Source: Bispira polyomma
Taxonomy: Eukaryota
NCBI GenBank assembly: GCA_965649765.1
Contig: OZ287752.1
Coordinates: 3,596,001-3,660,000, forward strand
Reading direction: 5' to 3'
DNA: 64,000 nucleotides
A model generated the notes under the pieces. That model had not been told where the DNA came from and made no database searches. It saw only the letters and a program-made list of their open reading frames with translations. Positions 2,517-36,539 of this stretch are shown here, one piece after another; position 1 is the stretch's first letter; each line of letters opens with the position of its first letter. A program made the translations under genes and the position numbers.

Positions 2517-2923
2517 CTTTTTGTGCATATTTGGCCAGATCTTGTTCTCTTTTTCTAAGTCGTAGAATTATTCTGACATAGCAGAAGCACAGAACCACCA
2601 TTGGGATGTAGAATTCAATCAGGAAAACCGCAGGCACTTTTGTCTTTACATAGCTGTTCATTACTATGCGAGACAGACATTGGCCACCAACTAAATCATA
2701 TGCAGTATATAAGAACCCTATGTGGAAGAGAGGCTCGAAGATCCAGGGTATGACCAGCATGGTCTTCATTGCCCTGGAGGTCAAATGCTGCCTGCTCCAG
2801 AATGGGTACAGGATCTTTAGATATCTGTCGATGGTGAGACAGAGCAAGCTGTATGTTGATGCAGTCACCAGGCCCCATATATGACTTTCTGTTGACCAGG
2901 TCTTACAAAGAAGATTGTAGAAC
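2517..2923 (-). CDS. Rhodopsin-class GPCR, middle coding exon (ECL1-TM3-TM4-ECL2-TM5)
   Basis: Acceptor tttttttctcacAG|G at 2925-2924, donor AAAG|GTAAGT at 2516; reads (W)FYNLLCKTWSTESHIWGLVTASTYSLLCLTIDRY...GQC...FYIPMVVLCFCY with DRY motif and conserved TM3/ECL2 cysteines. Confidence 0.92.
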
Positions 2924-3139
2924 CTGTGAGAAAAAAATGAATACTATGCATTTTTACACAATTATATTTATATGATGATATGATAAATTTTTAACGTGCC
3001 TAATTGATCTTCTAAAGTGCAACATCATTGAAAGATCATAGTCGGTTTGCAAAGAAAATTCGTGATCGGGAGGTGGCGTTGAGGAGAAAGATGTCTATGG
3101 AGGGTAAGCTAGGGTGAAGAGATGGGTCTTAAAGTTGTT

Positions 3140-7700: not shown

Positions 7701-8809
7701 CCCAGAATAACGCTTTATCAGTAAATGTAACACCTTCGTTAGCAAGCTCTTTCAGTTCAGCATTAATTTTCTCAATGTACATTCTGTCTAGTAATAAACT
7801 GACATTAAATTTATAAAAACCTCTACCTCTGACCCAATCTGAGGATTCATTAAAATTTACGTGTATCAGACTGTGATTGGATTTTATGCTCGGATATTTA
7901 AAAGTTTTCATGTTTTGAAATTGTAATTCCTGTGATATGAAAAACATGTCCAAACGTGAATGAACCCAACCACCTTTGCCTTTATTTTGCCAAGCATATC
8001 TGTAAGTATCAGGATGCTGTACACGGTATATGTCGCATAGGTTAAACTCATTCAAGATATTGTTTAATAGATCAAAATATTCTGAGGTTGTTATGAAAGC
8101 ACCACCCTTTTTATCTATCTTTAGATCCATGTAGGTATTAAAGTCTCCTCCTAGAATTATCTTTTTACCCATATACTGCAGTAAGTTATTTCTTATAAAG
8201 GTTAAGAATTGTTTCTGTTCTTGTAAATTGTTCTTCGTTGGGGCATATATATTCACAAGTACTATCTCGGTGTTATTAATTGATATATATAGTAATAAAA
8301 ATCTGCCACTGTCATCAGTAATATGGTCAATAACTTTAGCATTGTAGTTGTTAGGGATTAGGATACATACACCTCTAGCATTACTGGTGCCATGGCTGAA
8401 CCATACATTATAATTTTTTTAAATCTTTTTTCCAGTTAACTTCTTTTCCATTACTGGAGTGGGTTTCTTGGAAAAAAGTTATACCTCTATAATTGTCTTC
8501 TAGCCATTGTATAACTGAGTGCCGTTTACGATAGTTATTCAATCCATTGGTGTTCCAGCTAAATACCTTTAGGTTATTTTTATTAGCCATATTCATTCAA
8601 GAGAGTTTTGAAAAATGAATGTTGGAGAAACATTTTCCTTGACACTGTTGTCAGGTTGCAATTAACAATAATTTCACCATTCGAATGTGTTAAGTGATAG
8701 ACTGGGACAATGTTGGAATGTTTGAGCAATACAAGTGCAGAATCACAATACAATTTTGTCAACAAAATAGTTTTTCGATAAGTTAAGGCATTTGCCATTA
8801 CTTGAAGCA
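4729..8809 (-). mobile_element. Tx1/L1-clade LINE (5'-truncated, ORF2 only, frameshifted) nested in the RTE-X RT
   Basis: APE endonuclease (SWNTNGL, NIYAP, GGDFN, SRLDMF), RT (NWRLISVLNTDYKI, DFEKAF, QLADD), poly(A) as T-run 4729-4746; flanked by ttatgaaat[g/c]at at 4718-4729 and 8810-8821. Confidence 0.92.
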
Positions 8810-11640
8810 TTATGAAATCATATTTGATGAGGTACTCTGTCAAACGCTTTGGAAAAATCTATGAAAATACAATAGAATCTATTCCCTGTTTTACATAAAT
8901 ATTTACTAATGACAGCCTGCAGAACAAATATATGGTCCACTATTCTTTTGTGTTGTCTAAACCCGATTTGTTCCTCGAACAATTCATCATTTTCTTCAAC
9001 CCAATGTTTTAATCTTTCATTTAAAAACCCAGTGAATATTTTACACGCAACTGAAATAAGAGATATACCTCTGTAGTTGTTAGGGTAATTGATATCACCA
9101 ATTTTTAACAATGGTACAATCATTGCTTGACACCATTTTTCAGGGAAATTACCCGAGTCAAGAATACAGTTGAATATATCAACTAACATTGGGACTAGAA
9201 ACGATCCACTAATTTTTATCATTTTATTACATATACCATCTACTTATGCAGCTTTACCATTTGGTAATTTACATATAAATGACTGTATTTCGCTAATTGT
9301 AAACTTTACATTTAAGTCAACAGTGTTATTTCTTTCACACTCATCACAGTTTGTATTGTGACTTGACAGATCGGACTGCCCCATATTTAGGAATTCATCA
9401 TCAATGTTACAATCTGAATTTAATAAACTTTCAAAATGTTCATACCATGTATTACCACCTATATTACTTTTATTGACATTAGCTTTATTGCTACAAACTG
9501 TTTTTATGAAACTCCAAAAAGCGTTTTTATCTTTTCTTACCGCTAACAAGTTATCACATATTGCCTTTGATACAGATTTTCTTTACTACTAAACAAACAT
9601 TTAAACAGGTGTTTGCCTGTAGGTACTATTGCAAGGTATTCAAATCTCTTGTATTTCTAAATGATCTCAGCAGATACACTTTATTGTCTTTTAAAATTTT
9701 TAGTTCCGTATCCCACCAATCTGGTTGACTCTGTGGTTTCCTGTGATGTTTCTTCTGGTGCATATGGCTTGCAGCAGACTGAAGCACTGTAGTGAGCACA
9801 TTGACTGCATTATTCATGTTCTTATTTGCAAGATGGCTGACAATCACCGTGAGTGTAGTAGCAGACTCCTCGCACTGTAGTTTTTCAAGAAATAGTGGAA
9901 CATCTGAGTTTTTCCAGTTGAATTTGATCCTGTCATTGTAGCTTCTTGTATCCACATCAGATTCGACAGCTGCTAACCCACTACCATTGAAAGCTAGTGC
10001 TATAGGCTGGTGCACACTATCAGTAAACTGATCTTGAAGCACTTTAAAGGAGTGTATAAACTGAAATATCTCAGTAGATATAATTCCATGGTCCACAACA
10101 CTCGCTCCTCTCTGGGTTAGGCAAGTGAAATGTCCTTCTTCATCACCACAAGTACGACCATTAGCAACATGTACTCTAAATAACTGACACAATTTTAACA
10201 ACTGACAACCAAAATTGTTCTCTTTTTCAATTGGATCGTAGGATAACCGAGGCTTGTTAAAGGGGTCTTCTTCATACCAATCACCGATGGGCAAATGTTG
10301 AATCATTCATATTGTGATCTAATAAGGATCCTGTCCGAGCATTAAAATCACCAAGTAATATTAGTGATGGGGTTACTTCAATGTCTATTCGAATGTCAGT
10401 CAATTCATTTTCTAGCATAGCAACCTCACTAGCTTCCTCATTGTAGAAGGGTGATCCTTCAGGTGGTAGGTATACGGATACCAGTAAAATTTCTTTATTT
10501 AATCCCATTATGGAGCTTGGTAACAGTATGTAAACATCAATGGCACTATCACTTCTTAGTCTTTTGCATCTGGATGAAATGTTAGTTTTTAGATAAACAT
10601 TAATACCACCATTAAAGTGACCTCTTATTCCATGTCGACGTCCTGAGAGTGCTAAGCATTCATATCCACACAACAACTTGCTGTAATTACATTCCGGGGT
10701 TGTCCAAGTTTCAATCAAAGAAACAATATCATACTTGTCCAATAATGATATAAACACACTGCTTGTGCTGACTGAATTTAAACCTTGTACATTTTAACAA
10801 AGTACTTGCAGTTTTCCGATATTTTGAGTGTGCATCCGGCCCTGGCCACATCACTATTCCCTGCGAACAAGTTCATCGGTCTCCTCATTAAGTTCATATG
10901 TAGATCCGTAGATCTTAATTTGACGGTCTGTAAGAAGCCCCTGAAATTTTCCTTGTACTCTTCTTTCATCTGGTTTAAATGTGGAATGACCTTCCTACGA
11001 GCTACACACACTTTTTCTGTGAAATCTACTGCAAACCTCAAATTGCCAAACTTTTGAGACTCGTCTAGCCATTACACTTCTTACCAGGATTTTATCTCTA
11101 ACGGCTTGGCTTTTAAATTTGCAGATAACAGGCCGACATGGAGAGTGCTTGTCATGTTCGGCAGGCCCTGCATCATTTCATGATGCTGACTGGGAATTAT
11201 TAATGGGATGTCTCCTCTTGTCTATTTGGTAGGCTGAATCTCATTTTTTCAATCGGGATCCGAACAGTTTCAGAAATTTTCTCGGTAATATCAGTTATGA
11301 TTGGCCTATCAGGGTTATCGACTTCATCCATGCCATAAATAATAATGTTATTTTTCTTAGCTTGACCCTCTAGGAAATCCCCTCCAGTTTGAAGAGATTT
11401 GAAATCCTCTTTAAGTTCTTCAGAGTTTTTTTCATCTCTAAGAACTTTTTTCTAAAGTCTGGGTCAACATTAGCAGCAGAAGCAACGGAATTGGATCTGG
11501 TGTTAGCTTTGGGTGGACCAGGATTTGATTCCACTCCCCCAATTATGAGTAACACTGATATAATCAAGAAACACACTTCCAGACTGGTAATGGAAGCTGT
11601 GGCATTGCTGTCTGAATTCGGAACTTCTGAGGGTACCTCC
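8810..11640 (-). mobile_element. RTE-X-like LINE, middle part (most of ORF1 with 2A-like motif, APE endonuclease, RT N-half)
   Basis: ORF1 LLIIGGVESNPGP, KNNIIIYG; EN LIETW, VYLPP, LGDFNARTG, SVVDH, SVHQP; RT PNNYRGISL, DFSKAFDRV. Confidence 0.85.
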
Positions 11641-12187
11641 TGTAAACGGCAGAGAATATCTTGCCTCTGCTGGGATTAGAACCTGTGTCTCTTTAGATGT
11701 TCATGGTTAATAGTCCAGTACACTAACAGTTGAGCTAAAGGGGAAACCCCGGAAGACCGAGTGTTTAATAGGTTAGTGTAGCCTCAAATGAGAGACCACT
11801 CGCCCAGCAACTCAATGAGAGGCGTCCCAGCCATGATTTGTTATTATTATTATAAAACCATTAAAACACATATGATATCATGGCTTCAGTTTTTATTTGT
11901 TCCTTTTTTAAACTTTAATTTTAGTTTCTTTAATCACATCTTTATTATCAGTACATGTACTTTAGTAGTCCATTTTCACTTTTCCGTTTCTTTAATCACA
12001 TCATTATTATTAGTAATTTAGTATTCTATTTTCACTTTTCATTATATAATTGAACACATTTCACCTCCAGGTTTTTTCCCTTCTTCTCTCTCCTTCCACC
12101 TGGAGAGAGCAGCCTAGATTCACGTGCTTCCCCTGCTTTTATAGTTGTTGTTGGTTAGCCTTTCTTTGGCTCCCTTTACCCATGACA
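11641..12187 (-). repeat. Gypsy 3' LTR
   Basis: tgtaaacg...catgaca, direct repeat of 22275-22823 (19 mismatches counted in the first 220 bp, next ~130 bp identical); short purine tract AAGGGGCA adjacent on minus strand. Confidence 0.93.
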
Positions 12188-15099
12188 TGCCCCTTGGTTG
12201 GGCGAGCGCTGTCCTCAGTGCTCAAAATAGAACATCAAACTACATGCGAGTCAAAATTTGAAGATGCAGAACCATTAAAATACAACAAATTCATGGTATT
12301 TGTACATAATATATATGTATAATCTGACATAAACAAGTGCAGAGAAAAATATGATTTGGGCATCCTAGGTCTGTCTAATAAACACTAATTATTTTGTAAA
12401 TACACATCCTAACAATGGAGCAGCTTATGTTACAACCATATAAAAAATTAAAACAGAACCTAGGAGCCGTCCACTTGGACATACCATGTGGTATAAGTCT
12501 GGTGAAAGAAGAGTATGGGACAACGACAAATGAGGGAGGAGAAATGGTAAATGGGGGACATGAGGGATGCTAACAGAGATAGATATGGTTAATTATGAGA
12601 ACAGGCATAAAATGCAAAGCTAAAGACATAAGAAACTAAGCGGATGAATGCACATATTCTAGTGAGGTATAAGTATAGTTGAGTTATGTGTATTGTTGTT
12701 GCTGATGGAAACATGTGTGTTCTGACAGTAGGAACTCAGCAGCTCCTGGAAGTAGGCTGGTCATATTTGAATAGAATAGATATGGCTATACCTCCCTGGG
12801 AAAGAGGATGCATATATAATTGTTCGGCTATAGGATGTAGAATTAACCCAGAGAAATTGATGATCACCGGGTATTGTGGTACTGTATAAGATAACGTACT
12901 TGCAGAAAAAACAAAACTGCTTGGTAGTTCATATACTAGTTCTGGGTATGCAAGCTGTGCCGTCGTGCGAAAGTGTCGACCCAATCGCTGTACTACCAGA
13001 GCACAAGAGGCAACATACTATGCAAGCCCAGAAGTATATCCTTGCATTTATACTTAGTAGTTGAACATGAAACCATGAAGGAGAGACTGTTGAAAGCAAT
13101 AATGAGCTGGTGTGTGTTCCCTGTCTGCCAAAAGAGGCAGTCATCTTGCTCAGACAACCGCGGCCCGGGGCTGCTGGAGCAGGAGATGTATACAATATAA
13201 TTTTTACCATATAATTGAACTTAATACCCTACTTCTGAGGGAATGAAAGGTTGACAATGTTCACCTAAAACTGGCATTACAACATAACTGATGGGTGAGA
13301 TCCATCTTGATATAGAACTAAGAATACCATCCCAAAGTATATATAGAGAGTTCTATTTACACCAATTGGAAAATCAGTCTAATGGTTGACTGGGGTACCG
13401 CGGTACAAGCAATTAAATGGAAAAAACATTTGCTGCAGCAATATATATATATATATATATATACATAGGAGGTGCAAGTAACATTTGGCACCTAGGGTAT
13501 CTATATGTAATAATAGCACCCTTGCACGCAGGTAGGATCAAAATGGATTTACGACTACCTACTGCAATGCATGCAACTTCGGTATGCATCTTTGCCATAG
13601 GGGTATAATATTACCCTAAGGTGTTTTTTTATAATAGGACTGAAGTACCAGATAAGATGAGGTATTTGTTCATCTGGTTGTTCTACGTGGGTCTCAATAT
13701 GTATATGTATATACAAAACATTTGAACAACCTTGTTGGGTTTGTTCAGATTAATTGTAATGGACACATAGGTCTACGAAGTACAAAACATAACATCATCA
13801 CTCCTTAGCTTTTAACTATTACCTCAACATTGGTGGACATATATATATAGCACTACTCAGGCGTTACAAATCCAGCAACACCTATTGCTTTCTACCCATT
13901 TTCTTGTTCCCATTTTTACATAATAATATTGTAAGGAGACCCACATAGTACTGACAGTAAATGAATATACAACAATAAACAATGACTGTACATTCACAAG
14001 ATGTATATACTTTTCACAAGAACCATGGAATACAATGACATTAAAAGTTCAATTGTAAGCCAGTTGGCTAAAATTGTAATGGCACAAATACATATTTGTG
14101 GAAACCTGAACACATACCAGAGATTATAGAGTTATCACCGAACACACACAACGGTGACTAAACAAGGTCACTGATTTTATATACATATATGTGTACAACT
14201 AAAGGTTTAGTTTGTACCCCTCCAACCATACCTCGGGGTCATGTATAGTCTGAAGGAAAGTTACTATATGTTTTACTTACACAACACTTTTGTACATCTT
14301 TAACTAGAGTTCAACTTTAACTATAAATGTCTATAGACGATACTCTGGTCAATAATCCAGATTTGGTTTTAACATTTGAACCTTAGTGCAATAAACTGTC
14401 AGTAAGCACTAATTACACATATGTCCTTTTGTTTTGGTATTATTTTTTAACACTAATATCATGTACTTTCCATTGTAATTCGTTTTGATTTAGACATTTA
14501 ATTCACCAATTGAGTGTACTTTCAATGACTGCCATTGAACAAATATAATCATACTACTTCATGTAGTCTTTTACATACATAGTTTCCCACTTGTATACAC
14601 ATATTGTCCATTATGTTTTTACCATTAACTCCCAAATTGTTTTTTCCAAGGAATATACCAATAAAATATTTTGCCAAACTTTGGCTGACACAACACTTTA
14701 TTGACACAACAAATGAGGCTGGCAGCACTGGCACATATTATGTATATAACTGGGATAATAAATCACATTCTGAATTTCCCAATCAATATAAGCCAACTTC
14801 ACTTTAAGGCTTGTATCTGAACGGGTCAGGTCATGGGCGGGGCGGAGAACTGACACTTGCTATAGCTGACTTGGCCTGGTTATAACATGGAGGCAGGACT
14901 TGCTTTCTAAGTGGCGGTGTCAAAGGATTGAATGTTAAGGAGGGTTTTATTTATTTTAATTAGCCTGAACACACCGAAAAGTAAAATAAACACAATAATG
15001 GCAAAGGTGAGAAGGTGGTGGCCATTCTTAATTTTGTGTGATTACACCCTCAAGGGGAGATGGTGAGGAAGCTATCTAGGGTGGGGTGCTGAAATGAGA

Positions 15100-15310
15100 A
15101 CGCCTTTTGCCGCGTTCCATGGGTAGAAATACTGGCATTTTTAAGCTGATATATGTGTATCCATCATCTAAGCATTAAGTGTAAACTGCTTGATGGCTAA
15201 AAGATCAATCTGAAGTTCAGCCGATTGATTGTTGTTGGATATGTGGTTAAAGAGTTCACCATGGGCACTTTGGTCCATAGTAAAAATAGAACTACTTGTA
15301 CTAACGCCAT
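15100..15310 (-). pseudogene. N-terminal remnant of an env-like third ORF
   Basis: ATG at 15310: MALVQVVLFLLWTKVPMVNSLTTYPTTINRLNFRLIF*PSSSLHLMLR*WIHIYQLK, then after a frameshift MPVFLPMERGKRR; signal-peptide-like start in the ORF3 position. Confidence 0.5.
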
Positions 15311-15858
15311 GACTAGGCTAGGTGATGTACTGCTTTTTACTGTGCTGCAAAATACATATTTCCCTTTATTTATTTATCTATTATAAGTGGATGTATTTAT
15401 ATTTCATTGCTGCTCTTCTTGGACTCCACCTTACTGACTATATGTCTTATGTTTGTATTCACTGACCTAGATCCAGGATTGTGTTATATGTGTTTTAAGT
15501 TTAAAATTTTGACTGCTAAAGTAGTAATAATATTTATCTATTTATTTATTTTTTGATTGTCACTAACAGTTGTTTTTTTTGACACCAGCAAATAGGAAAG
15601 CTGAATCAGTTTGAAATATTTTTCAACTGTATTTTCTTGTTAATGGCTGTGTAACTATTTTCCTTTATCCTTGGCCACACATAGTTACTGGCAAGAATAT
15701 CTTTTAAGCAAATTACCATACATAACACTTTAGTTGTGGATGTTTATCTCCCCTATAAGTTTGCAACCACATTATGTTTTCATGGGTGAGCAAAGTTGGT
15801 GTATTCATTTCCTTAAGCATGTGAGGCCACATGCTAAGGTGATTATGAGTGCCTCTGT

Positions 15859-18800
15859 TTATGTGCGATATACAAGCTTGGCTGTCCGATCTCTTCCTGT
15901 TTCCCATGGTAGCTGGGACAGCTGCCTTTTATCTACTTTTGTTTGTGTCAAAGGAATCCAGATGGGTGTTTGATCAGCAGTCCCTGGATACTTTATGAGC
16001 AAATGGCCCTTATCATATCTTTTGCCAAAGGGATGTTTTGACAAATGGGATCATTACCTCCCATGGTATGTGTTGAGTCATTAATGTTGGAACCATCAAT
16101 TTCTACCTTGTCTTGTGGGTGGGTGGCTGCAGGTGGCTTTTGACTTTATGGACTGTGGAGTGTTTTCTCAGGACCTGTTTCTAGTCTATTCTAATTCTAT
16201 TTTCAGCCTAGGGAGGTCAAGTGGATCTATTTGCTTATTTGTATTGGTGGGGTGATATCTGAAATGTGGCTGTAATATGCTGGTTTAAGCAGGTCTAAGT
16301 GGAACTGAGTGACAAGTGGTTGGTCAGTTAGTGTTTTGGAAAGTAATACTGCCTTACTACCAACAAACTCCCTTATTAAAAATGGACCAATCCATTTATG
16401 GCACAATGCTTTGCTGACACCTGTCTGAGGTGACAGAGCCTTAAGATAGACTGGTTGCAAAAGTGTGTATTTTGGGGACCTGCTGTGCTTGTTATACTGA
16501 TGGGTCAGTTTTTGTGTAAAGATTTTGTGATTCTCCCCAATTATTTGCAGGGCTAAATCCTTTGATTCCACAAGGTGCTTGATGCTGCTTGATGATTTCT
16601 TGAAAAGTTGTGACCACTGATAACTTGATGCATATTCTCAAAGATGTCTGGATATTCCCTTCCAAACATGACAAAGTAGGGAGCAAATTCTGTGGCCAAA
16701 GAAACTGCCGTGTTATGTGCATGGCTGACTATAGGAAGCTGTTCAGGCCATTTGTCAGGGAATTGTGCACAAACTTTATTGACCTGTGCAGTGACCATGC
16801 AGAAGTGGGATTCCACCAGTCCATTTGAGTGGTGAATGTAAGAGTATGCATATCTCAGCTCACAATTGAGTAGCCTTGCTACGGCCCTGAAAGTGTTTGA
16901 CCTGAAGTAAGAGGCTCTATCGCAGCAGAGTGTTTTAGGGGCCCCAAATTTTAGTACCACATATTCATAAACAGCCTTCATTACTGTGTTAGTGGTACTG
17001 TCTGGCAAAGCTACTAATTCCATCCCTCTGGAAACTGATTCCACCATTATCAGAATATATTTCTGTGTGTTATTTGCTGTGGAAATTGGGACCTTTAAGA
17101 GAAAAGGGGGAAGATTAGTTGGGGGAATATGCGCCCTGGCCAGGCGACTAGTGTTTTTAAACTGCTGACAAGATGGACAGGTTTTGACATATTCAGCAAT
17201 TAAGGTTCTCATTCTGGGGAAATAGTATTTGTTTCTGATGGTATGCAGCATTTTAAGCTCTGAAAAATGCCCAGTGCCATGGAATAAGGCTAGAACAGGA
17301 TCAACATATTGCTTTGGTAAAACCAAGCAGTATTGGATGTGGACATTGTTCTTGGCATACTGAGTTAATGCAACCCTGTATAAAACACCTTCATGTCATT
17401 CAAAGAATTCACCTTCTATGATTATATTTCTGGCTAGTTGCTTTTCTTCCAGCATAATCCCTTCCTTTAAATACCTATAGTATTTCCCTGTGTATGAATC
17501 CTGTTTTTTCTTTGGTTCGCAAAGATCATTTTGCCAACTCCCAAAATATCTATGTGTGTTATCTGTACAAGTCTGTGACCCCAGATTGACATTAATACCT
17601 TTTTGGTCATGCTCTCCTTTATCTCCTCTCATAGACAGCCTTTTCTCTCCTCTAGACCTATTAGTCCTGTCCCTCATGTTTTCATGGGCGAGTGTTTTAT
17701 AATGAGGGAGAGTAGATGCAGGTGTTGACTAACAACAAGCTCTCTGTATGAGATGCTGTTTGGCCAGGCTCTCAGGTGGTGGGGGAAGAGCAGGGGGAGT
17801 CTGATAATAACTTGGGTGGTTCCTAGTAATGATACTGTCACACTAAGATATGTTGGTGTATGTCAGCATGAGTTTTACTGTTTACAGTTCTTATTTTGCC
17901 TGGTTCACATGGATGCATTTTATCTGACAGTACTTGACTTAGTTTTTGGTTTTGTTGTCTTTGATGTAGTAGGAGTGGATCTTTGTCCATACTTTGTCAC
18001 ATTTGTCCGCTTCATAGTCCCATACTAAGATATTTTGCTTGTCGGGTTGTAACTTAGGTTTTGTCCACTGGTCAGTCTGCAATATCTCATAGAATTTGGT
18101 CTGAGGATTTTTGTTAGGGCTAATGTCCGGTTCACACCTGTCCGAATTGAGGTTCATGTCAGGGAAACATAAGGATTGGGCTTCTGCTTCTAGCTTTTTA
18201 AGGGATAGAGCTTTAAACTCAACACATTTTGTTCTGGACAAGAAGTCTGCAACAGTGTTTGCTTTACCTGGCTTAAATTCGATCTGCACGTCGTATTTCT
18301 CAAAAATAGCCAACATTCTACTAACTTTGGAATCTGTGTAGGCATTTTTAAATAGGTATATTAACGACCGGTGATCTGTCCTTAATATCACTTTTTGATA
18401 GGCAATATATCTGTGGAAATATTTCAGTGCAGAGACACATGCTAGCAACTCTTGGAAGGTTATACTCTCACGAGCTTCATGTGGACTGAACTTAAATGAG
18501 CCATAGTGTAGAGGGACTAATTTATTCTGTTCATCATGCTGTAGTAAACAAAAACCCTCCTTCGAGGTGTCGCTTTCAATGTAAAAAGTTTGGTCATACT
18601 GGGGCAATCTCAGTCTACTAGCGTTCAGTATTGCACTTTTTAGATTCCTAAAGCTACGTTCACACTCATCCGCCCATTTGTACATTTTTTTTGTCAAAGC
18701 ATACATGTGACTGGCTGTAACACTGAATTTTGCAATGAAACGTCTCATAAATGAGGCATAACCTAACAAGGACTTCATTTCTGTTTTATTATGTGGCTGT

Positions 18801-20408
18801 TGCTAGTTTTTTATGATGTCCTGTTTGTGGGGATCGAGCTTTAGTCCCTTGTCCGATATTTTGAAACCTAAAAACATCAGTTCTTTCACACAGAATTCAG
18901 ACTTTGTTGGACTAATTCTAACGTTACTGTCTTTAAACCTTTGCAGGACATCTTTTACGAGTTTCAGATGCGTAGTGACGTCATGTGACAGCAAAAGGAT
19001 GTCATGCAAGTAGGCGTAAACATTATGCCATGGTAAACCCTTTAACACGATTTGGAGCATGCGCACTAGCGCTGCTGGTGAATTCTTACCGCCCATTGGT
19101 AATCTTGTGAGATTATAGACATCATCACGTGTGCGGAACCCGAGGTACTTCCGGTGACGTGCGTCAACATTCACCTGATAAAATGCTTGACTTAAGTCCA
19201 TTTTTGTTATGTACGTTGGAGAGTAGGGCAGATTGTCTGTGACGTCATGTAATGATATTGGGACTAACTCATCTTTTGCGACATATGTATTAGACAGAAA
19301 CGTGAGTGGCTGTCAGGGCGTCGCACTAAGACAATGGGATTTAAATATTGTGTGTCGCTAGGCTCAGCAATGCCTGCCTGCACAAGCTCTTTTACTTTGT
19401 CCTCAATAGCAGCATATTTGTTTGGGTTATACCTAAAAGGGCAGCATTTCCAAGGGGTAACGGAGGGATCTATTCTTAATTGATGTGTATACATCTTGCA
19501 CTCTGGCAAGTAATCCCCTTTTCTATAGAATACACTGTCATATTCCATTGAAATCTGCTTCAGTTTTTGTTTGTTTTTATCACCTAAAACTATGTAAGTC
19601 ATGCTTAATAGGTTCTGGGTCTCTGTCCTGTTTATTGAACTCTGGCAGAGCTCTTCTTCTAAATCTGCTTTCTTGTTTCCATCTAGTTGGGCTGTCATCA
19701 TCAATCAAGCTTGGCTTGGGGGAGTGAGGGGGGATTTTACCATGTGGGGGGATTTGTAAACCTGTCTGGTTGTGGAAAGTTACCCACATGTACTATGTCA
19801 CTTTTGTTTACATACATTAAAAACCCCACAGGCTGATTTTTGTTAAGTACCAGTGTGTTTTTGCTTACATTTGTCAGAACAACTGGTAACCGAGTATTTT
19901 TGTTTGTTGATTTGCATAAAATACGCCCTCCATTTAGCTTTTTACTGAACTGATGAGGAAAGTGGCCCTGGGTATATATTTCCTTATCAAAGGGTATCCT
20001 GAGTTTTGTCGAAACCACTTGTTCTGTGTAAGGGGGGATTTCTAGCCTTTCTTACAGATGCAACCTGCTGTTAAATGTGACATACATTTCCTTGTCATCA
20101 TAGAACACATGTACCTGAGCTTGTCTGAGAAATGGAGTACCCAGAATTAGATCTCTGCCTAAATGTTTACTTACATACATAGGTACCTCATATTTTCTTC
20201 CCATGACTTCTAGTCTGGGGAAGATTTTGTACTGGAACTTAATAGAATTCTTATTGTCAGCAGTACCTGCTACCTTAACATCTGAGGGTGCCTTAACCAG
20301 GCTACTGAGATACCTATTGTGATCAATAACATTTTGACTGACACAATTAAGTGTGGCTCCAGTATCTAAAAGTTCCTGATAGTGTACTATACCCATTTTA
20401 ACTTTCAC
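15859..20408 (-). pseudogene. pol: Gypsy pol (protease, RT, RNase H, integrase), fragmented
   Basis: LLDTGA; NPIVLV, DLSQAFYQV, RLPMG, YLHD (degenerate YLDD); IESDTS, ELLA, TDHRSL, NTVADFLSR; IN H..H..CPSC, HSNGLVE, KWIGPF. Confidence 0.92.
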
Positions 20409-20812
20409 CTCCCCTCCCTGGGTGGTATATTATACTGGTGTTTTTGTCTGCATTTTTCTCTGCTGCAGTTTATCATGTAATTCTTTCTTATTTTTCTACA
20501 TAGCCTTCCACTTGGCGCAACTATTCAATTCACCATATGGGTATTCACTATTTTCCTCACTTAGTGGGGCCTGAAACCTACATGTTTTGTCTCCCTCATC
20601 TTTATCAAACCTTAAAGGCAAGGCATCATTGACAGGGTTCTTGACAAAAGAATTTGTTATATATCTGTTTGTTAAATCCCTAACTTGGTTGATATATTTT
20701 CCTGTATACATTCTACCATTCTTGTAATACTTTTTACTGGTCCTAGCATCCTGTAAATTTTCTTTGGGTGGGGATGTGTTTGGACATCTTTCAGGGTGAA
20801 AGGACCTATCTG

Positions 20813-22264
20813 CTAAAAAACCTGCCTTCTGTAGGAAGGATTTTGGGATGGGGACTGGTAATTTCTTTGGAAATTGGGTCTGTACTGACCTGAATACCCC
20901 CTATTACCCTGCTGGTATGTAGGTTCATATCCACGAGAATCTTGGGAGGACCTGGGTTCAAACCTCCCATCATTTCTAAAGGATCTACGTTCTGGCTTAT
21001 TGTAATTTTGGTAAGACCTAGGTTCAAATCTATTTGGACTGGGGAACGTCCTGTGGTCATATCGACCATAATCCTGAGAGAGTCTGGGTTCAAACTCTGA
21101 ACTATAACTAGGATGACTCATTTGGGACTGGTTTGGAACATATCTAGCCTGGGGTCTGGCTCTACACTCATTACTGGAGTGACCTTTTCTACCACACTTA
21201 TTATACTCTATTCTATTAGGGGAATAGTACCCTTGATCATTACCTCTACTGCCAGACTCATTTACTTGACAAGTTCGGGCTTTATGCCCCATTTTACCAC
21301 AGTTCCAACATTTAACCTCATTTACATTAAGTACAGCTTGTGTGCTTACCCCCTCGATTGGTTGTGGTGGAGCATGTGTATAACCTGCCTTCAGTTTGAC
21401 CGCTTGTGTGAGTTTGAGCACTGTGTCTAGCAGGGGATCAGGGGAACGCAAGTCTTCCGCTGTCGCGATTTCAGCACTTTGAAGCAAATTGGCCTAGTCT
21501 ACTGCTGCCCTGGGACCTCTGCTCAACACAGTCTTATGGTAAGTCAGGAGAAGGCCCCAGAAAAAAGTCTGGAAAAGGATGAGGTCTTGCTTGCCAAGTT
21601 TGTTGCCAGGTTCAGCGGCCCGGTTCGCATATTGCTCTATGGTTTCTGTATATGTTTGTTTTAGGGCCTCAAAATCCATTTCCTTGGCCCAACTTATTCC
21701 TTGTGGTTAAAACCGTGTTTTGGAGGCTTCAAAGATGTCCCTGCAGGCGATGTTGTCATCTTCTGGGAAGGTCAGCAAATACCACCGCTTTGCTTCCCCT
21801 TTCATGGACAACATGAAAATACCCCTAGTTTGGGCGTTTGTCATATTGTATAGTTTGACATAAGCACTAAAGTCTTGGAGAAATTCCCTTACATTCTCTG
21901 AGGAGCAGCCTGAGAAGGGCTAGATTTTGTAGGAGACTATGTCGGCTGCTAACATAGGTGGCTGAACTGGACGATCTAGTCTGGGCAGTGGTCCTACATG
22001 TCCGGGGAGAATGGGGTGGGCAGGGGGTGCAATGCCTTCTGCATCAGCTGGCAGTCCTTTTGGTGCTCCACCAGGCAGGGGATGAGCGCCTGGGTGGCCA
22101 GGAGCTGGTGGGCCATCCTCTCGTTCCTCAGGCAGAGCCAGTTGTGGTTCCACTTGTCTCAGGTCACCTCCTGGTCCCTCATGGGGCTGGACAAGGTTTG
22201 CCATCTGCCCTGGTTGTGAGAGTGCTACCTGGCACTCCATATATTGCTGGATACCCGCGAGCAT
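20813..22264 (-). pseudogene. gag: Gypsy gag (one frame with in-frame stops): Pro/Gly-rich N-terminus, capsid-like region, CCHC knuckles
   Basis: ORFs 21920..22291, 21494..21679 and 20813..21487 share a frame; PFSG...F...F motif; CWNCGKMGHKARTC plus a second degenerate knuckle. Confidence 0.85.
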
Positions 22265-22274
22265 TACTCCACCA
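22261..22274 (-). promoter_or_regulatory. Primer-binding site, probably tRNA-Ala
   Basis: TGGTGGAGTAATGC abuts the 5' LTR; complementary to a ...CUCCACCA tRNA 3' end as in eukaryotic tRNA-Ala. Confidence 0.7.
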
Positions 22275-22823
22275 TGTAAACGACAGGGCATATTCTGCCT
22301 CTGTTGGGATTAGAACCTGTGGCTCTTTAGATGTTCCTGGTTAAAAGTCCAGTACACTAACAGTTGAGCTAAAGGGGAAACCCCGAAAGCCCGAGTGTTT
22401 AATGGGTTGGTGTAGCCTCAAATGAGAGACCACTCGCCTAGCAACTCAATGAGAGGTGTCCTAGCCAGGATCTATTATTATTATTATAAAACCATTAAAA
22501 CACATATGATATCATGGCTTCAGTTTTTATTTGTTCCTTTTTTAAACTTTAATTTTAGTTTCTTTAATCACATCTTTATTATCAGTACATGTACTTTAGT
22601 AGTCCATTTTCACTTTTCTGTTTCTTTAATCACATCATTACTATTAGTACTTTAGTATTCTATTTTCACTTTTTATTATATAATTGAACACCTTTCACCT
22701 CCAAGTTTTTTCCCTTCTTCTCTCTCCTTCCACCTGGAGAGAAGCCTTGATTCACATGCTTCCCTTGCTTTTATCATTGTTGTTGGTTACCCTTTCTTTG
22801 GTTGCCTAAACCCGTACATGACA
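22275..22823 (-). repeat. Gypsy 5' LTR
   Basis: Direct repeat of 11641-12187, immediately followed on minus strand by the PBS. Confidence 0.93.
22296..22378 (-). other. tRNA-like (Lys-UUU-like) cassette in LTR U5 (second copy 11662-11744)
   Basis: TCCCCTTTAGCTCAACTGTTAGTGTACTGGACTTTTAACCAGGAACATCTAAAGAGCCACAGGTTCTAATCCCAACAGAGGCA: A-box-like TAGCTCAACTG, anticodon arm CTGG-ACTTTTAA-CCAG, B-box-like GGTTCTAATCC. Confidence 0.65.
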
Positions 22824-22874
22824 TTCCCTACAAGCCCCTATCCTTGCTCTCCATGTGGATATATCAACACCCAA
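22824..22874 (-). mobile_element. RTE-X-like LINE, displaced ORF1 N-terminus (element 5' end lies further right, not mapped)
   Basis: Reads LGVDISTWRARIGACRE and joins in frame to VPSEVP...GGVESNPGP left of the Gypsy when one 4-bp TSD copy is removed. Confidence 0.8.
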
Positions 22875-30446: not shown

Positions 30447-31929
30447 TACACAATTTCACCTTTCTAATTTTTTACTTTTTACCTATATTTTAACTTACAC
30501 CCTGTAACTAATTTGTAAAGTACTTTAAGCTTTTAAAGAGGTAAAGTGCTGTACAAATATTACATAATAAATAAATACACAAGCAGTATTACAAATGTCA
30601 GTTTACTTACCTATATATCCCCTTGAACATGTACTGATTTACTTCTCACTTCCCTCCCGTAAGATATACACACTGTGACATATTGCGCTCACTCACCCAG
30701 TGAAAAGCTAATAAACAACCAATCATAAATTACCCCCTAAGTAATCAGGTAAAAGAAGTAACAAGAGATATCATACTAACAACTCCTGCCCCCCCCCACC
30801 TGCCCCCCCCCCCCCCCCCACCCACCACCACCACCACACACTCTCAGTCTTCACCAGGTGCCATTTTTACCCTCTGTGACATCACAAATATGGCACGTCA
30901 ATTTGAATGGACGACCTCACATGTTGGGCCAGTTTTGTGGACAATACTCACTCACAGTATCATAAGTATCACTACGATGCAAACATGTACAAAATACAAC
31001 TTTATCATGCTACATAGGACAATATCTCATATGTGAGTTATTAGTCCACTGTGTTATGCCAACTTTTATATATGTATTACTCAATTACCATATATGGTAT
31101 TAAATGAACATTACAACATTGTGCAGTACCTGTACTCACATATTAAAATTACAAACACATAATAATCTATATAATTATGGTCCTGAAAAGTTATTTTACT
31201 GTATCACTTTGTCGAGCAAGAACACTTTAGGGATCTGCTGGGTCCGTTCACCATCCCACAGAAAGAACCTTTTTTATAAAGCCATTCTTGTTCCTGATCT
31301 CCCATTTTCCGCTCTCTTTCATCCAGCCAATCACTAATTAACACCCCTCTTAATTAGCTTGTGGGTCCCCACTTTTGGACACCATATTGAAAATAGTGTT
31401 GGAATGACAAATACTGGAAATACATTTTGGTCCCACCTCCAACCCCTTTTTTCCTCCATTTTAAGGATTTTCTATTACTATATATATATTTTACATACTT
31501 CGTCAGCAGGAACTGGAACCCCGGGCCGTGTGGCGGCAGGTTCGATCTTTCACTCTTCCTCTGAGCCCAACTATAGTGGCCAGGGTGGAATAGGGGATGG
31601 GAGACCGAATGCCCCTCTGTTAGGTGACTAGGTATCGTAGGTCAGGGGTTTTTCACAGTCTTTCTGTTTCAAATGGGAATAAGATGGGAATTACTACAAA
31701 TGCGGTTAGTTAGAACAATGTTGGGGCCGCAGGCCTTGGAAATCTGGCTAGTCCTTGTGAAACCATGTGTTGGGTTCAAGTATTAACAATTTAATGTCAA
31801 CTTGTCCGCTGCTGTGGACTTCCTATTATACACTAATAGTGTATTCTTGGTTATTTTATAACGTAACTTTTAATGTAACGGGCTAGTCCCATAATTTGTT
31901 TTAAACTTGTATCTACATCCATTGGGATT

Positions 31930-32490
31930 GTTTACTATTCTGTACTATGCTTGTATACTATTCTGTACTATGCTTTTATACTATTCTGTACTATGTATTG
32001 TATGCTATTCTGTACTACATTTGTATACTACTCTGTACTATGTTTGTATACTTCTCTGTACTATGTATTGTATACTATTCTGTACTATGCTTGTGTACTA
32101 TTTTGTACTATGTATTGTATACTACTCTGTAATATGTTTGTATACTTCTCTGTACTATGTATTGCATACTATTCTGTACTATGCTTGTATACTATTCTGT
32201 ACTATATTTGTATACTACTCTGTACTATGTTTATATACTATTCTGTACTATGCTTGTATACTATTCTGTACAATGCTTGTATACTATTCTGTACTCTGTA
32301 TTGTATAATATTTTGTACTATGTTTATATACTACTCTGTACTATGTTTGTATACTATTCTGTACTATGTATTGTATACTATTCTGTGCTATGTTTGTATA
32401 CTACTCTGTACTATGTTTGTATACTATTCTGTACTATGTTTGTATACTATTTTGTACTATGTTTGTATACTATTTTGTACTATGTATTGG
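31930..32490. repeat. Minisatellite, 23-24-bp unit, ~24 copies
   Basis: tactattctgtactatgtttgta and variants; generates spurious Tyr/Cys/Leu-rich ORFs. Confidence 0.92.
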
Positions 32491-33491
32491 GTGCATTTAA
32501 AATCTTAGTCATTTCTTACAATTTTAAATATTTTACCTCATTATTGTGATATTGTACATAGATATGATAACCTGTACAAAAATAAACTCCAAAACAGAAT
32601 TCTTATTACTTGTTCTTCACCTCAACGGATTAACTTTACCACATAGGGAACTTGGAGTAAATCAAAGGTAAAAAAAGTAGATTAATTTTCTGTTACCATC
32701 CCCCCCCCACACACACACACGCACATACAATGACACATTAAATTACCAAATGGTTTGAACAGTCTACCTGTGTTAAAGGAGACAAAGAATGAGTTCTATT
32801 ATGAACTTCTACTAAACACAAAACTAAAACCCGGCTGATTCGTTTGTGGGATTGGTAGACGTGTTTGTCTCCGCTCAAATTACAATTCATTATTGTACAA
32901 AGCGCCACAAAAGGTAAAGGAAGACCTCAATGTTGATTGCCCCTTCAATGACCTAATTAAACCAAGTTAATAGATAGCCTATTTTGTGTTATACAACAAA
33001 TGTAATAGGTGTTGCGGAATTAAAGTAGCAAACCGTGTCAGTCTTAGAGAAAGCTTAAAAAACATAAAATTAAACACAAGTGGCCTTGCTATTTTCGTAT
33101 CAATATTAGTTTTTGGGTTTCAATGGTTAAAGTGGAAGGTCACCCCTAGGTTGGCCTGTATGTACTGCACATAACTAGACCACAAGGTGTCTGCAAAGCT
33201 TGAGATATTAAATCACATGGTGGCTGTCTACCCATTTCTTGCATACAGCTAGGCCTTCTGATACTGAGGCTGTGAGTTGTTAAAGCACATGGGGGTTTGC
33301 TGAAATCAATGTGCATAAATACCTCCGCACTTGGGGTTCAAAGTCAGTTGGAAGTTTAGAGGGCTGAGCGCCATATTGGAAAATTGGACTCCTGTCTGCT
33401 AGACTACATAGGAAATTCAATTTTAGTTAGAATTAGAATTACCTTTTTAAATTCCTAACAGTCAAGCCGGCAAAAGTCCTTCCAGAGTCAA

Positions 33492-34502
33492 GTGTTTTAC
33501 AAAATGGGGCCTAAACCGGGAGTTAACAAGAACAGTAAAAGTACGAATAAAAGTACTGTTGAAAGAAGTGAAAATATTGTACCAGACACTGATATTGTTA
33601 CTAATAATATGGAGGGTGAAGAAGCTGAGATAACAAATACGCACAGTAAGTCCATGTCGGACAAATTAACTGAACTGTTAATGGTGGTGAAAGGTATGGG
33701 TGTGCAATTAAATAATCAGGATGAACTGTTGAAAAAACAAGAGGACAGAGTGAGTTTAAATGAAATTTCGGTGCTTCCATCGGCCCAAAGTTCACCAAAG
33801 GCTATGGGTCAGAAAACAGCTGTTCCAGAGAGTGCAATTCCAAAGCTACCCTCTTTTGAAGTCCTCAAAAGTGACTCCCGTATCCAAGCCGAAGTTCAGA
33901 AGAGATTGCGTGATTATGAAGGAGCTTCACGTCTCGACTATAAAGGTAAAAATACTTCCACTTTAAAATCTGGCCAGTATAGAGCGGGTGTACATAAAGT
34001 AAAAGTCCAGGTCACATGGCCCCAAGATTATTACACCGTCGCTCATACCAACAAACAACTGACATATAACGAAATGTCTCCCATACAATGGGCACAGGGG
34101 TTGCTTTGTTGCTCGTTAGAGGAATGTGATCTTGAGAAAAGGCAGGTTATGCTTAATTACCACGTTACCTTAATGCAAGACACTGTCGAGTTGGGATTAG
34201 AAGCAGCTAAGAAAGCGCATGCTGCAGTACTTCAAGAAATAGAAAAAGGCCGGGTCACATGGGACAAAATCGAACTGATAGAAAAAATCAGAGCTAGAAA
34301 TGCCCAAAGGGTCCCCTATAACGGTGGTACAGGTAGTAGTGAAAACAGGAACACAGAAAGTCGTGTCTGCTCCTTTTTTAATAAGGGTACCTGTAAGCTA
34401 GACAAGGACCACGTGCCCAAAGGTTTCAAATATGAGCACTACTGCAAGTATGTGCGAATGAAAAATGATAGTAAGGGACAGAAAACTGAGCAGCGAGTTT
34501 AA
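33492..34502 (+). CDS. Ngaro-type gag-like ORF1 with C-terminal Cys/His finger
   Basis: LKSG.YR..., WPQD, YNEMS..QW..G, CSFFNKGTC....H...HYC; likely ATG at 33504. Confidence 0.75.
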   Translation: MFYKMGPKPGVNKNSKSTNKSTVERSENIVPDTDIVTNNMEGEEAEITNTHSKSMSDKLTELLMVVKGMGVQLNNQDELLKKQEDRVSLNEISVLPSAQSSPKAMGQKTAVPESAIPKLPSFEVLKSDSRIQAEVQKRLRDYEGASRLDYKGKNTSTLKSGQYRAGVHKVKVQVTWPQDYYTVAHTNKQLTYNEMSPIQWAQGLLCCSLEECDLEKRQVMLNYHVTLMQDTVELGLEAAKKAHAAVLQEIEKGRVTWDKIELIEKIRARNAQRVPYNGGTGSSENRNTESRVCSFFNKGTCKLDKDHVPKGFKYEHYCKYVRMKNDSKGQKTEQRV

Positions 34503-36539
34503 CCCTATTAGTTGTAATGTGTCTAAAGTCAACAACGGCGGGAAATATTATAATAACCTTGGCCTAAATTACGACACAATTATTGTAAAGATAAATCATC
34601 ATAAGGAAGGTATTTGTAATAAAACTAAATTAAATCCACGTGCAAAAATTTTTAGACAAGAAATTTGTAATACTGATAGTAAATGGTTACAACATGATAC
34701 TCGTTCTAATAGTATGTATGTTTATACCAAATCATGTAATAATATGCCTAAAAATAGATTGAATGAAGGTGTTAGAAATTATAAAATCACCTTGAACCCG
34801 TTGGCCAGCGAGTTTAGCCCAAAACAAGGTGCTCGTGTTAAAAAACATGACCATGGTATCAGTTATAACAAAGACCCTAATATGGGTAATATGGGAAACC
34901 AATTGAACCCGTTGGCCACTGTGTTTATGTACAAAAGTCTTGATACAGAAAAAACGTCTTCCCGGTGCAAAGTACTAGCTGAAAAAATAGAATATTTTTA
35001 ATAGTCCTAAAACAAATGTTGATAGACTTAGTGACAACTTAGTAATGAATAAAAATGTATCGAGCTCTTATAACAGAGTTTATGGGAGCGATGTTAATTT
35101 ATTAATGTCACAATAATTCTAGCAATAGTGTTTATTGTGTGACTAGTCGCATAGTTAGTACAAGTGACAGAAATAGTTATACTTTTGTTAAAGCTAGTAA
35201 TGTATCTGTCAGTGTAAGTAACAATAACACTAGTATGGCCAATATAACTGTAGATTCTAATGACCTGAACACCCTGTCGTCGTTGGTCCATAGGTCCAGT
35301 TATCTAATTATGTGTATATTAGAACACGTTGCACTAAATTGCTGTCAGGTAAGTTCTAGATACTGCAACAATAATAAGTACCTTGACCCTTGTTCAACAC
35401 TTGAATCGTCTCTTGAAATTACACAAGGGGTAAAGGACTCATGGGGTGGTGGTGAAACTTGTTTTGACAGCAGGTGTTCAGAGAAGAATATAAACAGTGG
35501 TAGATGTAAAACAAAAATGGAACACCATAGTGTACTATCATACTATAATAGCAGTGTAAATAAAATATGGCAGGATGCTATGTGTAAAAACACATGTGAA
35601 CATGTTCACATTCAGAATGGCAGTCACCTTAACAGAAAAGTCCATAATGTACACACGTTGGCTAATCATAACGTGAACATGTATATGGACTGGACTGTAG
35701 ATCAGTATGGTGAAAATCATAATGGACACACGGGTAACACTGGTAGTCATATAAATAAGACACACAGTGATAGTATGGATTCAGTACAAGACGTTAATAA
35801 TACTTCCTTAATGGAGTACTATAATGGCCTCAGCCCTAGTGAACTTTCAACTACTTCACTTTGCAATTACACAGAACTGAATGGTTCTTTTTATATAAAG
35901 TTAGCTCTTAGTGATAGTTTTATGAACAACATAGTAATATTAATGAGACCAGAAGGTCTAATACGGGACATTACAATTCTGATGACTATATTAATAAAGC
36001 CTTTACTAATAACGAGTTAAGGCAGAATGAACTCGTTACTTATGATTTGATTTTATCTGATATTACAAATGATGTATTATACGCTCATTTTAGTCCCAGT
36101 TTCAACACTGGTGATAATTTTAATTGTCAATATGCCAGCTTTTATAAAACTTTCGAATGTTTGGCATATTTTCAATTACAGTCCATGATTCACATGCATG
36201 CTACTTATACAGAAGATAGTAGTATTATTTATGAATTCGGACATACTTCATATATGCATGACAGCATGGCAATGAAGGTTGGTAATAACCACCATTCTAA
36301 TACAGTTGGTTCTTATATAGAAGATACAAGTTATAAATAATTTGATGAAAAATCAAATATGATTAAATTAGTCATACAAAATTATACTTTTAACAATACC
36401 ACTAAAGAAGATAGTTATGATTTTAATAAAGTTAAAGCTACCAGCTGGTTTATTGAAAAAAAAGGGAGATGGTGACTGAACCCTGTGACTTTGTGTTTCT
36501 CTCTCATGCTCCTCTTCCAAAAAGTTTGAATTTACTACT

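What the first reader, a model, noticed from the sequence alone, without database searches (positions are those of the whole stretch)
22296..22378. Coding-type Gypsy element whose LTRs carry a tRNA-like Pol III cassette
Seen: both LTRs (22296-22378 and 11662-11744) contain, in element-sense orientation ~20 bp from the U5 end, an 83-nt tRNA-like stretch. It has an A-box-like TAGCTCAACTG, an anticodon arm CTGG-ACTTTTAA-CCAG resembling tRNA-Lys(UUU) (CTATTAA in the 3' LTR), a long variable region, a B-box-like GGTTCTAATCC and a partial acceptor stem. The PBS 21 bp downstream points to a different tRNA (Ala), so this is not the primer site. Known: small-RNA-derived LTR segments are described mainly in small non-autonomous elements (e.g. 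5S in Cassandra TRIMs). Inference: a gag-pol(-env) Gypsy with such an LTR could be an autonomous partner or ancestor of tRNA-bearing TRIMs. It may use an internal Pol III promoter or TFIIIC-bound insulator, or a tRNA mimic for RNase P/Z processing just upstream of the PBS.
Basis: partly seen in the sequence, partly recalled or inferred. Interest (0 to 1): 0.72.

Follow-up and report, generated by a model that had tools for sequence, protein, structure and literature searches.

The report
Gypsy retrotransposon with captured Helenus end
A protein-coding jumping-gene family carries in both end repeats a worn tRNA look-alike that it shares with a far more abundant gene-less mini-element of the same genome; it likely took the piece from that mini-element by repeated recombination, which would mark it as the mini-element's helper.

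Summary
The tRNA-derived stretch is real. Models built from this genome's own tRNA genes rank 22296-22378 and 11662-11744 first in the window (sequence-only E about 1e-5). It does not fold as a tRNA (14 bits with structure, real tRNAs 81-89; no covariation). It resembles tRNA-Thr/Phe; the Lys-like arm is private to the 5' LTR, and the extra 10 nt lie in the anticodon loop, not a variable arm. The cassette is part of a 129-nt LTR end shared with a high-copy 400-470-bp Helenus-type TRIM of the same genome: same Ala primer type, 4-bp target duplications. It is family-wide in the Gypsy (26 of 30 LTR loci). Direction is most likely TRIM to Gypsy: a divergent sister TRIM roots the tree, Gypsy cassettes nest inside TRIM diversity in three places, and some Gypsy LTRs are mosaics of TRIM subfamilies. 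So it is a probable helper, not the ancestor. Kojima 2024 called such LTR sharing unlikely. No function of the cassette in the Gypsy is shown. The scan noted Helenus-Copia hybrids in a fungus before (unchecked note).

The parts
22275..22823 (-). 5' LTR, 549 nt, TG...CA
11641..12187 (-). 3' LTR, 547 nt, 93.6% identical to the 5' LTR
22404..22823 (-). Gypsy-specific part of the 5' LTR (420 nt); TATA-like word at LTR position 142, poly(A)-signal-like words at 147, 244, 293, so the cassette is inferred to lie in U5
   Evidence: no match to the TRIM interior
22275..22403 (-). 129-nt LTR end homologous to the Helenus-type TRIM LTR from its position 25 to its end
11641..11769 (-). same TRIM-homologous end in the 3' LTR; 85-87% identical to the nearest TRIM copies
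22371..22403 (-). 33-nt block (includes tRNA positions 1-8), 85-88% identical to TRIM copies; absent from 22 of 25 exact junction matches in the genome
22296..22378 (-). tRNA-derived cassette, Thr/Phe-like, 10 extra nt in the anticodon loop, pairing decayed
11662..11744 (-). same cassette in the 3' LTR
22361..22371 (-). A-box-like motif; intact in 2 of 21 Gypsy LTRs (both in this window) and 39 of 53 TRIM LTRs
22307..22317 (-). B-box-like motif with T at tRNA position 57, the state of TRIM subfamilies A/B; 14 of 21 Gypsy LTRs match the strict (recalled) consensus instead
22253..22274 (-). PBS for tRNA-Ala: 8 contiguous matches, then bulged
   Evidence: uninterrupted form in Gypsy copy L165 (by eye)
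12188..12200 (-). polypurine tract before the 3' LTR
22824..22827 (-). target-site duplication, 5' side; 3 of 4 letters match 11637-11640
20813..22309 (-). gag, broken by stops and frameshifts; zinc knuckle in 20813-21493
20052..20429 (-). aspartyl protease fragment
17939..19704 (-). reverse transcriptase and RNase H fragments
16227..17395 (-). integrase fragments
12201..16224 (-). 4-kb region after integrase, shared with other copies; no Pfam family, no open frame of 130 aa or more in the window copy

Best explanation
The coding Gypsy family shares the last 129 nt of its LTR, tRNA-derived cassette included, with a Helenus-type TRIM of the same genome, and it likely captured this end from the TRIM by template switching when the two RNAs were packaged together. 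Shown: the shared end, the same primer type, 4-bp duplications in both, family-wide presence, mosaic LTRs. Inferred: a founding capture from the TRIM A/B/C lineage; an early 33-nt loss that removed the start of the A box in most Gypsy copies; later re-imports of TRIM pieces, guided by homology on both sides (window element: block and T-loop/acceptor from TRIM-A; L008: middle from TRIM-C; L033: block in front of a short-type junction). Repeated exchange implies co-packaging, so this Gypsy is likely a helper that mobilised the TRIM. In the TRIM the cassette likely served as a Pol III promoter (Kojima's inference, untested); in the Gypsy it is likely a passenger within a U5 that supplies the integrase end and the PBS context, while the 11-kb RNA would come from the Pol II-type U3.
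For: TRIM anatomy: 13 full elements of 401-467 bp, LTRs about 150 nt, exact 4-bp duplication in 6 of 13 full and 6 of 17 solo copies (shuffled mean 0.6); PBS 17 of 18 matches to the genome's tRNA-Ala(AGC) in L058. 255 exact genome matches to a 30-nt cassette word; of the first 30, 0 have Gypsy U3 and 23 have the TRIM start. Gypsy: 26 of the 30 loci picked by whole-LTR similarity carry the cassette; 10 of 11 solo LTRs have an exact 4-bp duplication, so the chimeric LTR transposed. Direction: a divergent sister TRIM family (26 distinct loci, 22 with the TRIM start, 0 with Gypsy U3) has normal tRNA spacing (43 nt against 53-54), so the loop expansion is a derived trait shared by TRIM A/B/C and the Gypsy. 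Rooted on that family (100/100), 20 Gypsy cassettes fall inside TRIM A/B/C in three places and form one group in 0 of 200 bootstrap trees. The 11-nt word at the cassette start occurs 10 times in Kojima's Helenus set, in oysters, scallops, ribbon worms and coelacanth (wider likeness judged by eye). Mosaics: L008 middle differs from the nearest TRIM by 2 of 25 and from the nearest Gypsy by 11, while its end is Gypsy-like; the window 3' LTR T-loop/acceptor differs from TRIM-A by 2 of 22 and from other Gypsy by 5 or more. A single long/short split is rejected on the U3 tree of 30 LTRs (p-AU 0.0017).
Against: The cassette tree has 95 columns for 97 rows, recombinant rows and an unsettled bootstrap. 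An earlier U3 tree of 22 LTRs did not reject one long/short split (p-AU 0.217). The window's TRIM-like pieces could be retained ancestral states shuffled among Gypsy copies; only L008 strictly needs a second TRIM-Gypsy exchange, and as a solo LTR it could be DNA-level gene conversion. No family member with a pre-capture U5 was found; sister lineages (47-71% aa identity, 5 loci) are decayed with no recognisable LTRs. TRIM LTR pairs are older-looking (median 87%, 13 pairs, some mixing subfamilies) than Gypsy pairs (93%, 2 pairs), and the sister TRIM family shows no exchange with this Gypsy, so other helpers may have existed; other elements with the same primer were not surveyed. TRIM interior and Gypsy interior share no sequence beyond PBS and PPT.
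Confidence: 0.7

Rival explanations
1. The Gypsy lineage acquired the tRNA piece first and the TRIM arose from it by deleting U3 and the interior.
For: The long-form LTRs include the most divergent U3 sequences; most Gypsy copies keep a more tRNA-like B box than TRIM-A/B (14 of 21 against 3 of 38); TRIMs commonly derive from coding elements (established; PMC13570524 passages).
Against: Sister TRIM family with the ancestral loop length and the same TRIM start and interior; nesting of Gypsy inside TRIMs; no interior homology; cross-phylum Helenus word; Kojima's search of Helenus against Repbase reported only one Copia interior match.
Confidence: 0.1
2. Capture happened at the DNA level: a TRIM inserted into or converted a Gypsy LTR, the copy then transposed, and the Gypsy was never the TRIM's helper.
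For: TRIM copies are abundant (3121 first-look candidates), so ectopic conversion is plausible; L008 is a solo LTR.
Against: The first 24 nt of the TRIM LTR are missing at the junction and there is no duplication around the segment; both families use an Ala primer and 4-bp duplications; the mosaic is in both LTRs of the window element.
Confidence: 0.12
3. The captured cassette works in the Gypsy as a TFIIIC-bound site (insulator or short Pol III transcript) and was kept by selection. This concerns function and is compatible with the best explanation of origin.
For: Strict B box in 14 of 21 Gypsy LTRs although the A-box start is lost in 19 of 21; B-box-only TFIIIC sites are known (recalled).
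Against: The window's own B box departs from consensus; copies decay neutrally, so retention may be inheritance; several copies lack parts of the cassette (L006, L016, L174).
Confidence: 0.2
4. An ordinary SINE insertion in an LTR, or a folded tRNA mimic for RNase P/Z.
For: tRNA-derived sequence; other tRNA-like heads occur in the loci.
Against: The shared segment runs to the LTR terminus with no tail or duplication; 8 cassette hits lacking a clear TRIM end share no downstream sequence; cloverleaf 50.6% paired, covariation 0.083 against shuffled 0.082; RNAalifold predicts no pair on 47 TRIM ends; median folding z -0.09 for 58 TRIM ends.
Confidence: 0.04

Closest known systems
Helenus (TRIMp3), Kojima 2024, PMC10886601 (whole main text; supplement passages)
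   Same: tRNA-like sequence in each LTR, A/B-box-like motifs, no working tRNA fold, 4-bp duplications in animals, tandem arrays; bivalve families read as tRNA-Thr. The TRIM here fits and shares the cassette-start word with 10 listed families.
   Different: Helenus is defined as short and non-coding; the paper kept only elements under 1000 bp, noted that other Repbase LTRs also hold tRNA-like pieces, and called long LTR sharing with the autonomous partner unlikely. Here an 11.2-kb gag-pol family carries 129 nt of the TRIM LTR. An Ala primer is not among those listed for animal Helenus, and four motifs of this family were absent from the supplement.
Cassandra and Ajax (5S-bearing TRIMs), as described in PMC10886601
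   Same: Small-RNA-gene-derived segment inside LTRs.
   Different: 5S rather than tRNA; non-autonomous; the paper states no helper is known for Cassandra.
Hybrid LTR retrotransposons from template switching (PMC13570524, passages; PMC1950507, search listing only)
   Same: Exchange of LTR modules between families.
   Different: The passages seen describe plant elements and mostly TRIM-TRIM chimeras; here a coding animal family became fixed for a TRIM-derived, tRNA-bearing end.

Membership tests
Gypsy/Ty3 LTR retrotransposon (window element) | gag, then protease-RT-RNase H-integrase order | tested here: met
Gypsy/Ty3 LTR retrotransposon (window element) | TG...CA LTRs, PBS, PPT, short target duplication | tested here: met
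   window duplication 3 of 4, solo copies 10 of 11 exact
Gypsy/Ty3 LTR retrotransposon (window element) | intact reading frames (currently autonomous) | tested here: not met
   window copy and the two other long copies examined are broken
env-bearing Gypsy | envelope-like third ORF | tested here: inconclusive
   0 Pfam families; periodicity test had no power
Helenus/TRIMp3 (window element) | short, non-coding | tested here: not met
   11.2 kb with gag-pol remains
Helenus/TRIMp3 (window element) | tRNA-derived sequence in both LTRs | tested here: met
Helenus/TRIMp3 (the TRIM of this genome) | under 1 kb, two LTRs with PBS and PPT between, no coding capacity | tested here: met
   401-467 bp, interior 75-110 nt
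Helenus/TRIMp3 (the TRIM of this genome) | tRNA-derived sequence with A- and B-box-like motifs in the LTR | tested here: met
   strict B box only 13 of 53
Helenus/TRIMp3 (the TRIM of this genome) | 4-bp duplication (animal families) | tested here: met
Helenus/TRIMp3 (the TRIM of this genome) | transcription by RNA polymerase III | not testable with these tools
   needs RNA ends or ChIP; T-run strand test uninformative
functional tRNA or tRNA-like structure | cloverleaf with conserved or covarying stems | tested here: not met
tRNA-derived SINE insertion | own target duplication, body and tail, free copies with the same head | tested here: not met
   sample of 30 of 255 hits

The most novel reading that the evidence does not exclude
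A coding Gypsy family took over its parasite's Pol III control region and kept the B box as a working TFIIIC site, making it a self-sufficient LTR retrotransposon with a functional tRNA-gene element in its LTR; and such repeated LTR-end swaps are the route by which Helenus lineages change helpers and primer tRNAs.
Probability: 0.2. Interest if true: 0.75.

Novelty: new variant of a known kind. Interest (0 to 1): 0.5.

Why it matters
Helpers of animal Helenus were guessed only from primer type, and the describing paper expected no LTR sharing. Here a named candidate helper is tied to its TRIM by recombination tracts, and sequence flows from parasite to helper, the reverse of the usual origin of TRIMs. 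It gives a general, testable way to find helpers of TRIMp3 elements: search coding LTR families for the TRIM's LTR end. It also shows that a coding LTR family can spread with a tRNA-derived U5. Limits: old, broken copies, one genome, no functional data.

Tried and rejected
ARAGORN on the window and on 37 element loci: no tRNA. Rfam at E<=10: no tRNA hit. The 5' LTR end folds well (z -3.0) but the 3' LTR (-0.6) and family do not: chance of one copy. Homology between the Gypsy U3 tail and the TRIM interior, suspected by eye: rejected, 69 of 300 shuffles score as high. Sister Gypsy lineages as outgroup for the LTR: decayed. Protein search gave 4 hits, best 56% identity, no context. Sequencing runs: no RNA holder listed. 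Pol III terminator avoidance in TRIMs: 12 of 20 with a T4 run, 10 of 20 with an A4 run, uninformative. In one search the printed T-run offsets are 447 too small through a script slip; the first run of six T lies about 0.8 kb after the cassette start, and notebook entry 3 has the uncorrected figure. One search used a wrong ARAGORN option and was redone. A first tRNA-Lys pattern found nothing. Rows dropped: duplicated loci merged by flanks; LTR ends set by motif, some mis-set, which lowers the TRIM duplication counts; L034, L013, L016 and up to 11 TRIM rows left out of some alignments; 3 of 26 sister-TRIM rows left out of the tree. A genome-wide survey of other elements with the same primer site was not run, so whether this Gypsy is the only or main helper is open. 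Literature searches for a coding LTR element with a Helenus-type LTR returned none; Repbase and subscription journals were not searchable.

Full report
The element. The window holds an 11.2-kb Gypsy element on the minus strand, with LTRs at 22275-22823 and 11641-12187, 93.6% identical. Fragments of gag, protease, RT, RNase H and integrase lie in Gypsy order; all frames are broken. The flanking 4-mers match at 3 of 4 letters. The 4 kb after integrase is shared with other copies but has no Pfam match, so env is not shown. The genome is 1.035 Gb in 75 contigs; an earlier unchecked note calls the organism an invertebrate.

Is the cassette real? As sequence, yes. A profile of 22 tRNA genes fetched from this genome ranks both cassettes first in 64 kb, with envelopes exactly 22296-22378 and 11662-11744 (E 4e-5). 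A sequence-only model gives 21.5-22.1 bits. As structure, no. The same model with a cloverleaf gives 13.6-14.6 bits against 81-89 for real genes; ARAGORN and Rfam find nothing. Among 15 isoacceptor types the best match is Thr(TGT); over all copies Thr wins in 10 of 21 Gypsy and 27 of 54 TRIM LTRs, Phe in 9 and 15. The Lys-like loop and arm are private changes of the 5' LTR. The 10 extra nt sit in the anticodon loop.

The TRIM. Searching the genome with the LTR end returned mostly a different repeat: a 400-470-bp element with two LTRs of about 150 nt, a PBS, a polypurine tract, solo LTRs, tandem arrays and 4-bp duplications. Its PBS matches the genome's tRNA-Ala(AGC) at 17 of 18 letters in L058. 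A 30-nt cassette word has 255 exact matches; none of the first 30 has Gypsy U3. This fits Helenus, described by Kojima 2024 (PMC10886601; whole text read). An 11-nt word at the cassette start occurs in 10 Helenus families from oysters, scallops, ribbon worms and coelacanth in that paper's supplement; the wider likeness, including the block upstream of the tRNA part, was judged by eye only.

What the two share. The Gypsy LTR is 420 nt of its own sequence followed by the TRIM LTR from position 25 to the end. This is family-wide: 26 of 30 loci picked by whole-LTR similarity carry the cassette; two are cut earlier and two (one duplicated locus) diverge at the junction. Ten of 11 solo LTRs have exact 4-bp duplications, so the chimeric LTR transposed. 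Most copies lack 33 nt, including tRNA positions 1-8: 22 of 25 exact junction matches, 32 of 36 in the pooled set. The window element is one of three long-form insertions. The Gypsy PBS is a bulged Ala site; copy L165 has the uninterrupted form.

Direction. A second, divergent TRIM family turned up beside L004. It has the same LTR start, block and A box, an Ala-type PBS, no Gypsy U3 in 26 loci, and normal tRNA spacing (43 nt against 53-54). The loop expansion is therefore a derived trait that joins the Gypsy to the main TRIM lineage. Rooted on the sister family, Gypsy cassettes nest inside the main TRIM in three places (95 columns, rough supports). The TRIM and Gypsy interiors share nothing beyond PBS and PPT. 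Capture from the TRIM is the simplest reading. Against it: no pre-capture LTR was found, and sister Gypsy lineages are too decayed to help.

Repeated exchange. L008 has a Gypsy U3 and end but a middle that differs from a TRIM-C copy by 2 of 25 letters and from any Gypsy by 11. The window LTRs have a Gypsy-type middle and a TRIM-A-type T-loop and acceptor strand. L033 carries the block in front of a short-type junction. Long and short forms lie on both sides of the deepest U3 split, and one split is rejected with 30 LTRs (p-AU 0.0017), though not with 22. At least one TRIM-Gypsy exchange after the founding one is needed, perhaps three. Template switching between co-packaged RNAs is the established route (seen in plants, PMC13570524 passages); DNA-level conversion is the rival.

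How it likely works. The Gypsy proteins would package and copy the TRIM RNA, primed by the same tRNA-Ala; switches near the LTR end would move TRIM sequence into the Gypsy LTR. In the TRIM the cassette is likely a Pol III promoter (inferred, as in Kojima 2024). In the Gypsy it cannot plausibly make the genomic RNA: 54 runs of four or more T follow it and the A-box start is intact in only 2 of 21 LTRs. It lies downstream of TATA-like and poly(A)-signal-like words, so in U5 by inference. The strict B box in 14 of 21 Gypsy LTRs leaves a TFIIIC role open.

Novelty. Helenus is known, and hybrids between LTR families are known. Kojima kept only elements under 1000 bp, noted other tRNA-bearing LTRs in Repbase without describing them, and wrote that a long shared LTR stretch between TRIMp3 and its partner is unlikely. 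Seven searches found no coding family with a Helenus-type LTR end. An unchecked note of this scan reports Helenus-Copia hybrids in a fungus; no look-alike of this sequence was on file. Verdict: new variant of a known kind, interest 0.5.

Noticed in passing
L223-L252 (e.g. L004:2950-3275, minus strand): Second Helenus-type TRIM family with a normal-length, Thr(CGT)-like anticodon loop (16 of 23 rows), Ala-type PBS, 391 first-look candidates.
   Followed up: yes
L200, L208, L215, L053: TRIM subfamily whose LTR ends in a 29-nt duplication joining the A-type and B-type ends; its T loop resembles that of the genome's tRNA-Ala(AGC), the primer tRNA (by eye).
   Followed up: partly
L142, L143, L153, L157 (G000 C14) and L041: Tandem arrays of the TRIM with three or more LTRs.
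   Followed up: no
window 21920-22309 (-): A gag-frame ORF is open from inside the LTR through the PBS, with an ATG inside the bulged part of the PBS; the leader may be very short.
   Followed up: no
window about 11505-11545 (-): The 3' flank reads as a 2A-like peptide motif ending in NPGP (motif recalled, read by eye), upstream of LINE endonuclease/RT fragments at 5569-10793; the Gypsy seems to have inserted into or next to a LINE 5' end.
   Followed up: no
window 905-2943 (-): Two frames match the rhodopsin-family GPCR model.
   Followed up: no
window 53946 onward: Long array of a 52-bp repeat.
   Followed up: no
L016, L018-L020, L024-L026; L017, L022: Gypsy 3' LTRs with identical flanks on several chromosomes, so carried inside another duplicated or mobile unit; L017/L022 break off exactly at the U3-cassette junction.
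   Followed up: partly
L145:1232-1304, L229:851-922, L008:2783-2856, window 7464-7489: Other tRNA-like stretches, probably SINE heads, unrelated to the cassette.
   Followed up: partly
L010/L003 and L059/L180: Internally deleted members of the Gypsy family (about 5.4 kb and 2.2 kb), the first with a 4-bp duplication.
   Followed up: partly
window 31879-38131 (+), 46668-47282 (+): Further RT-bearing fragments of non-LTR type.
   Followed up: no
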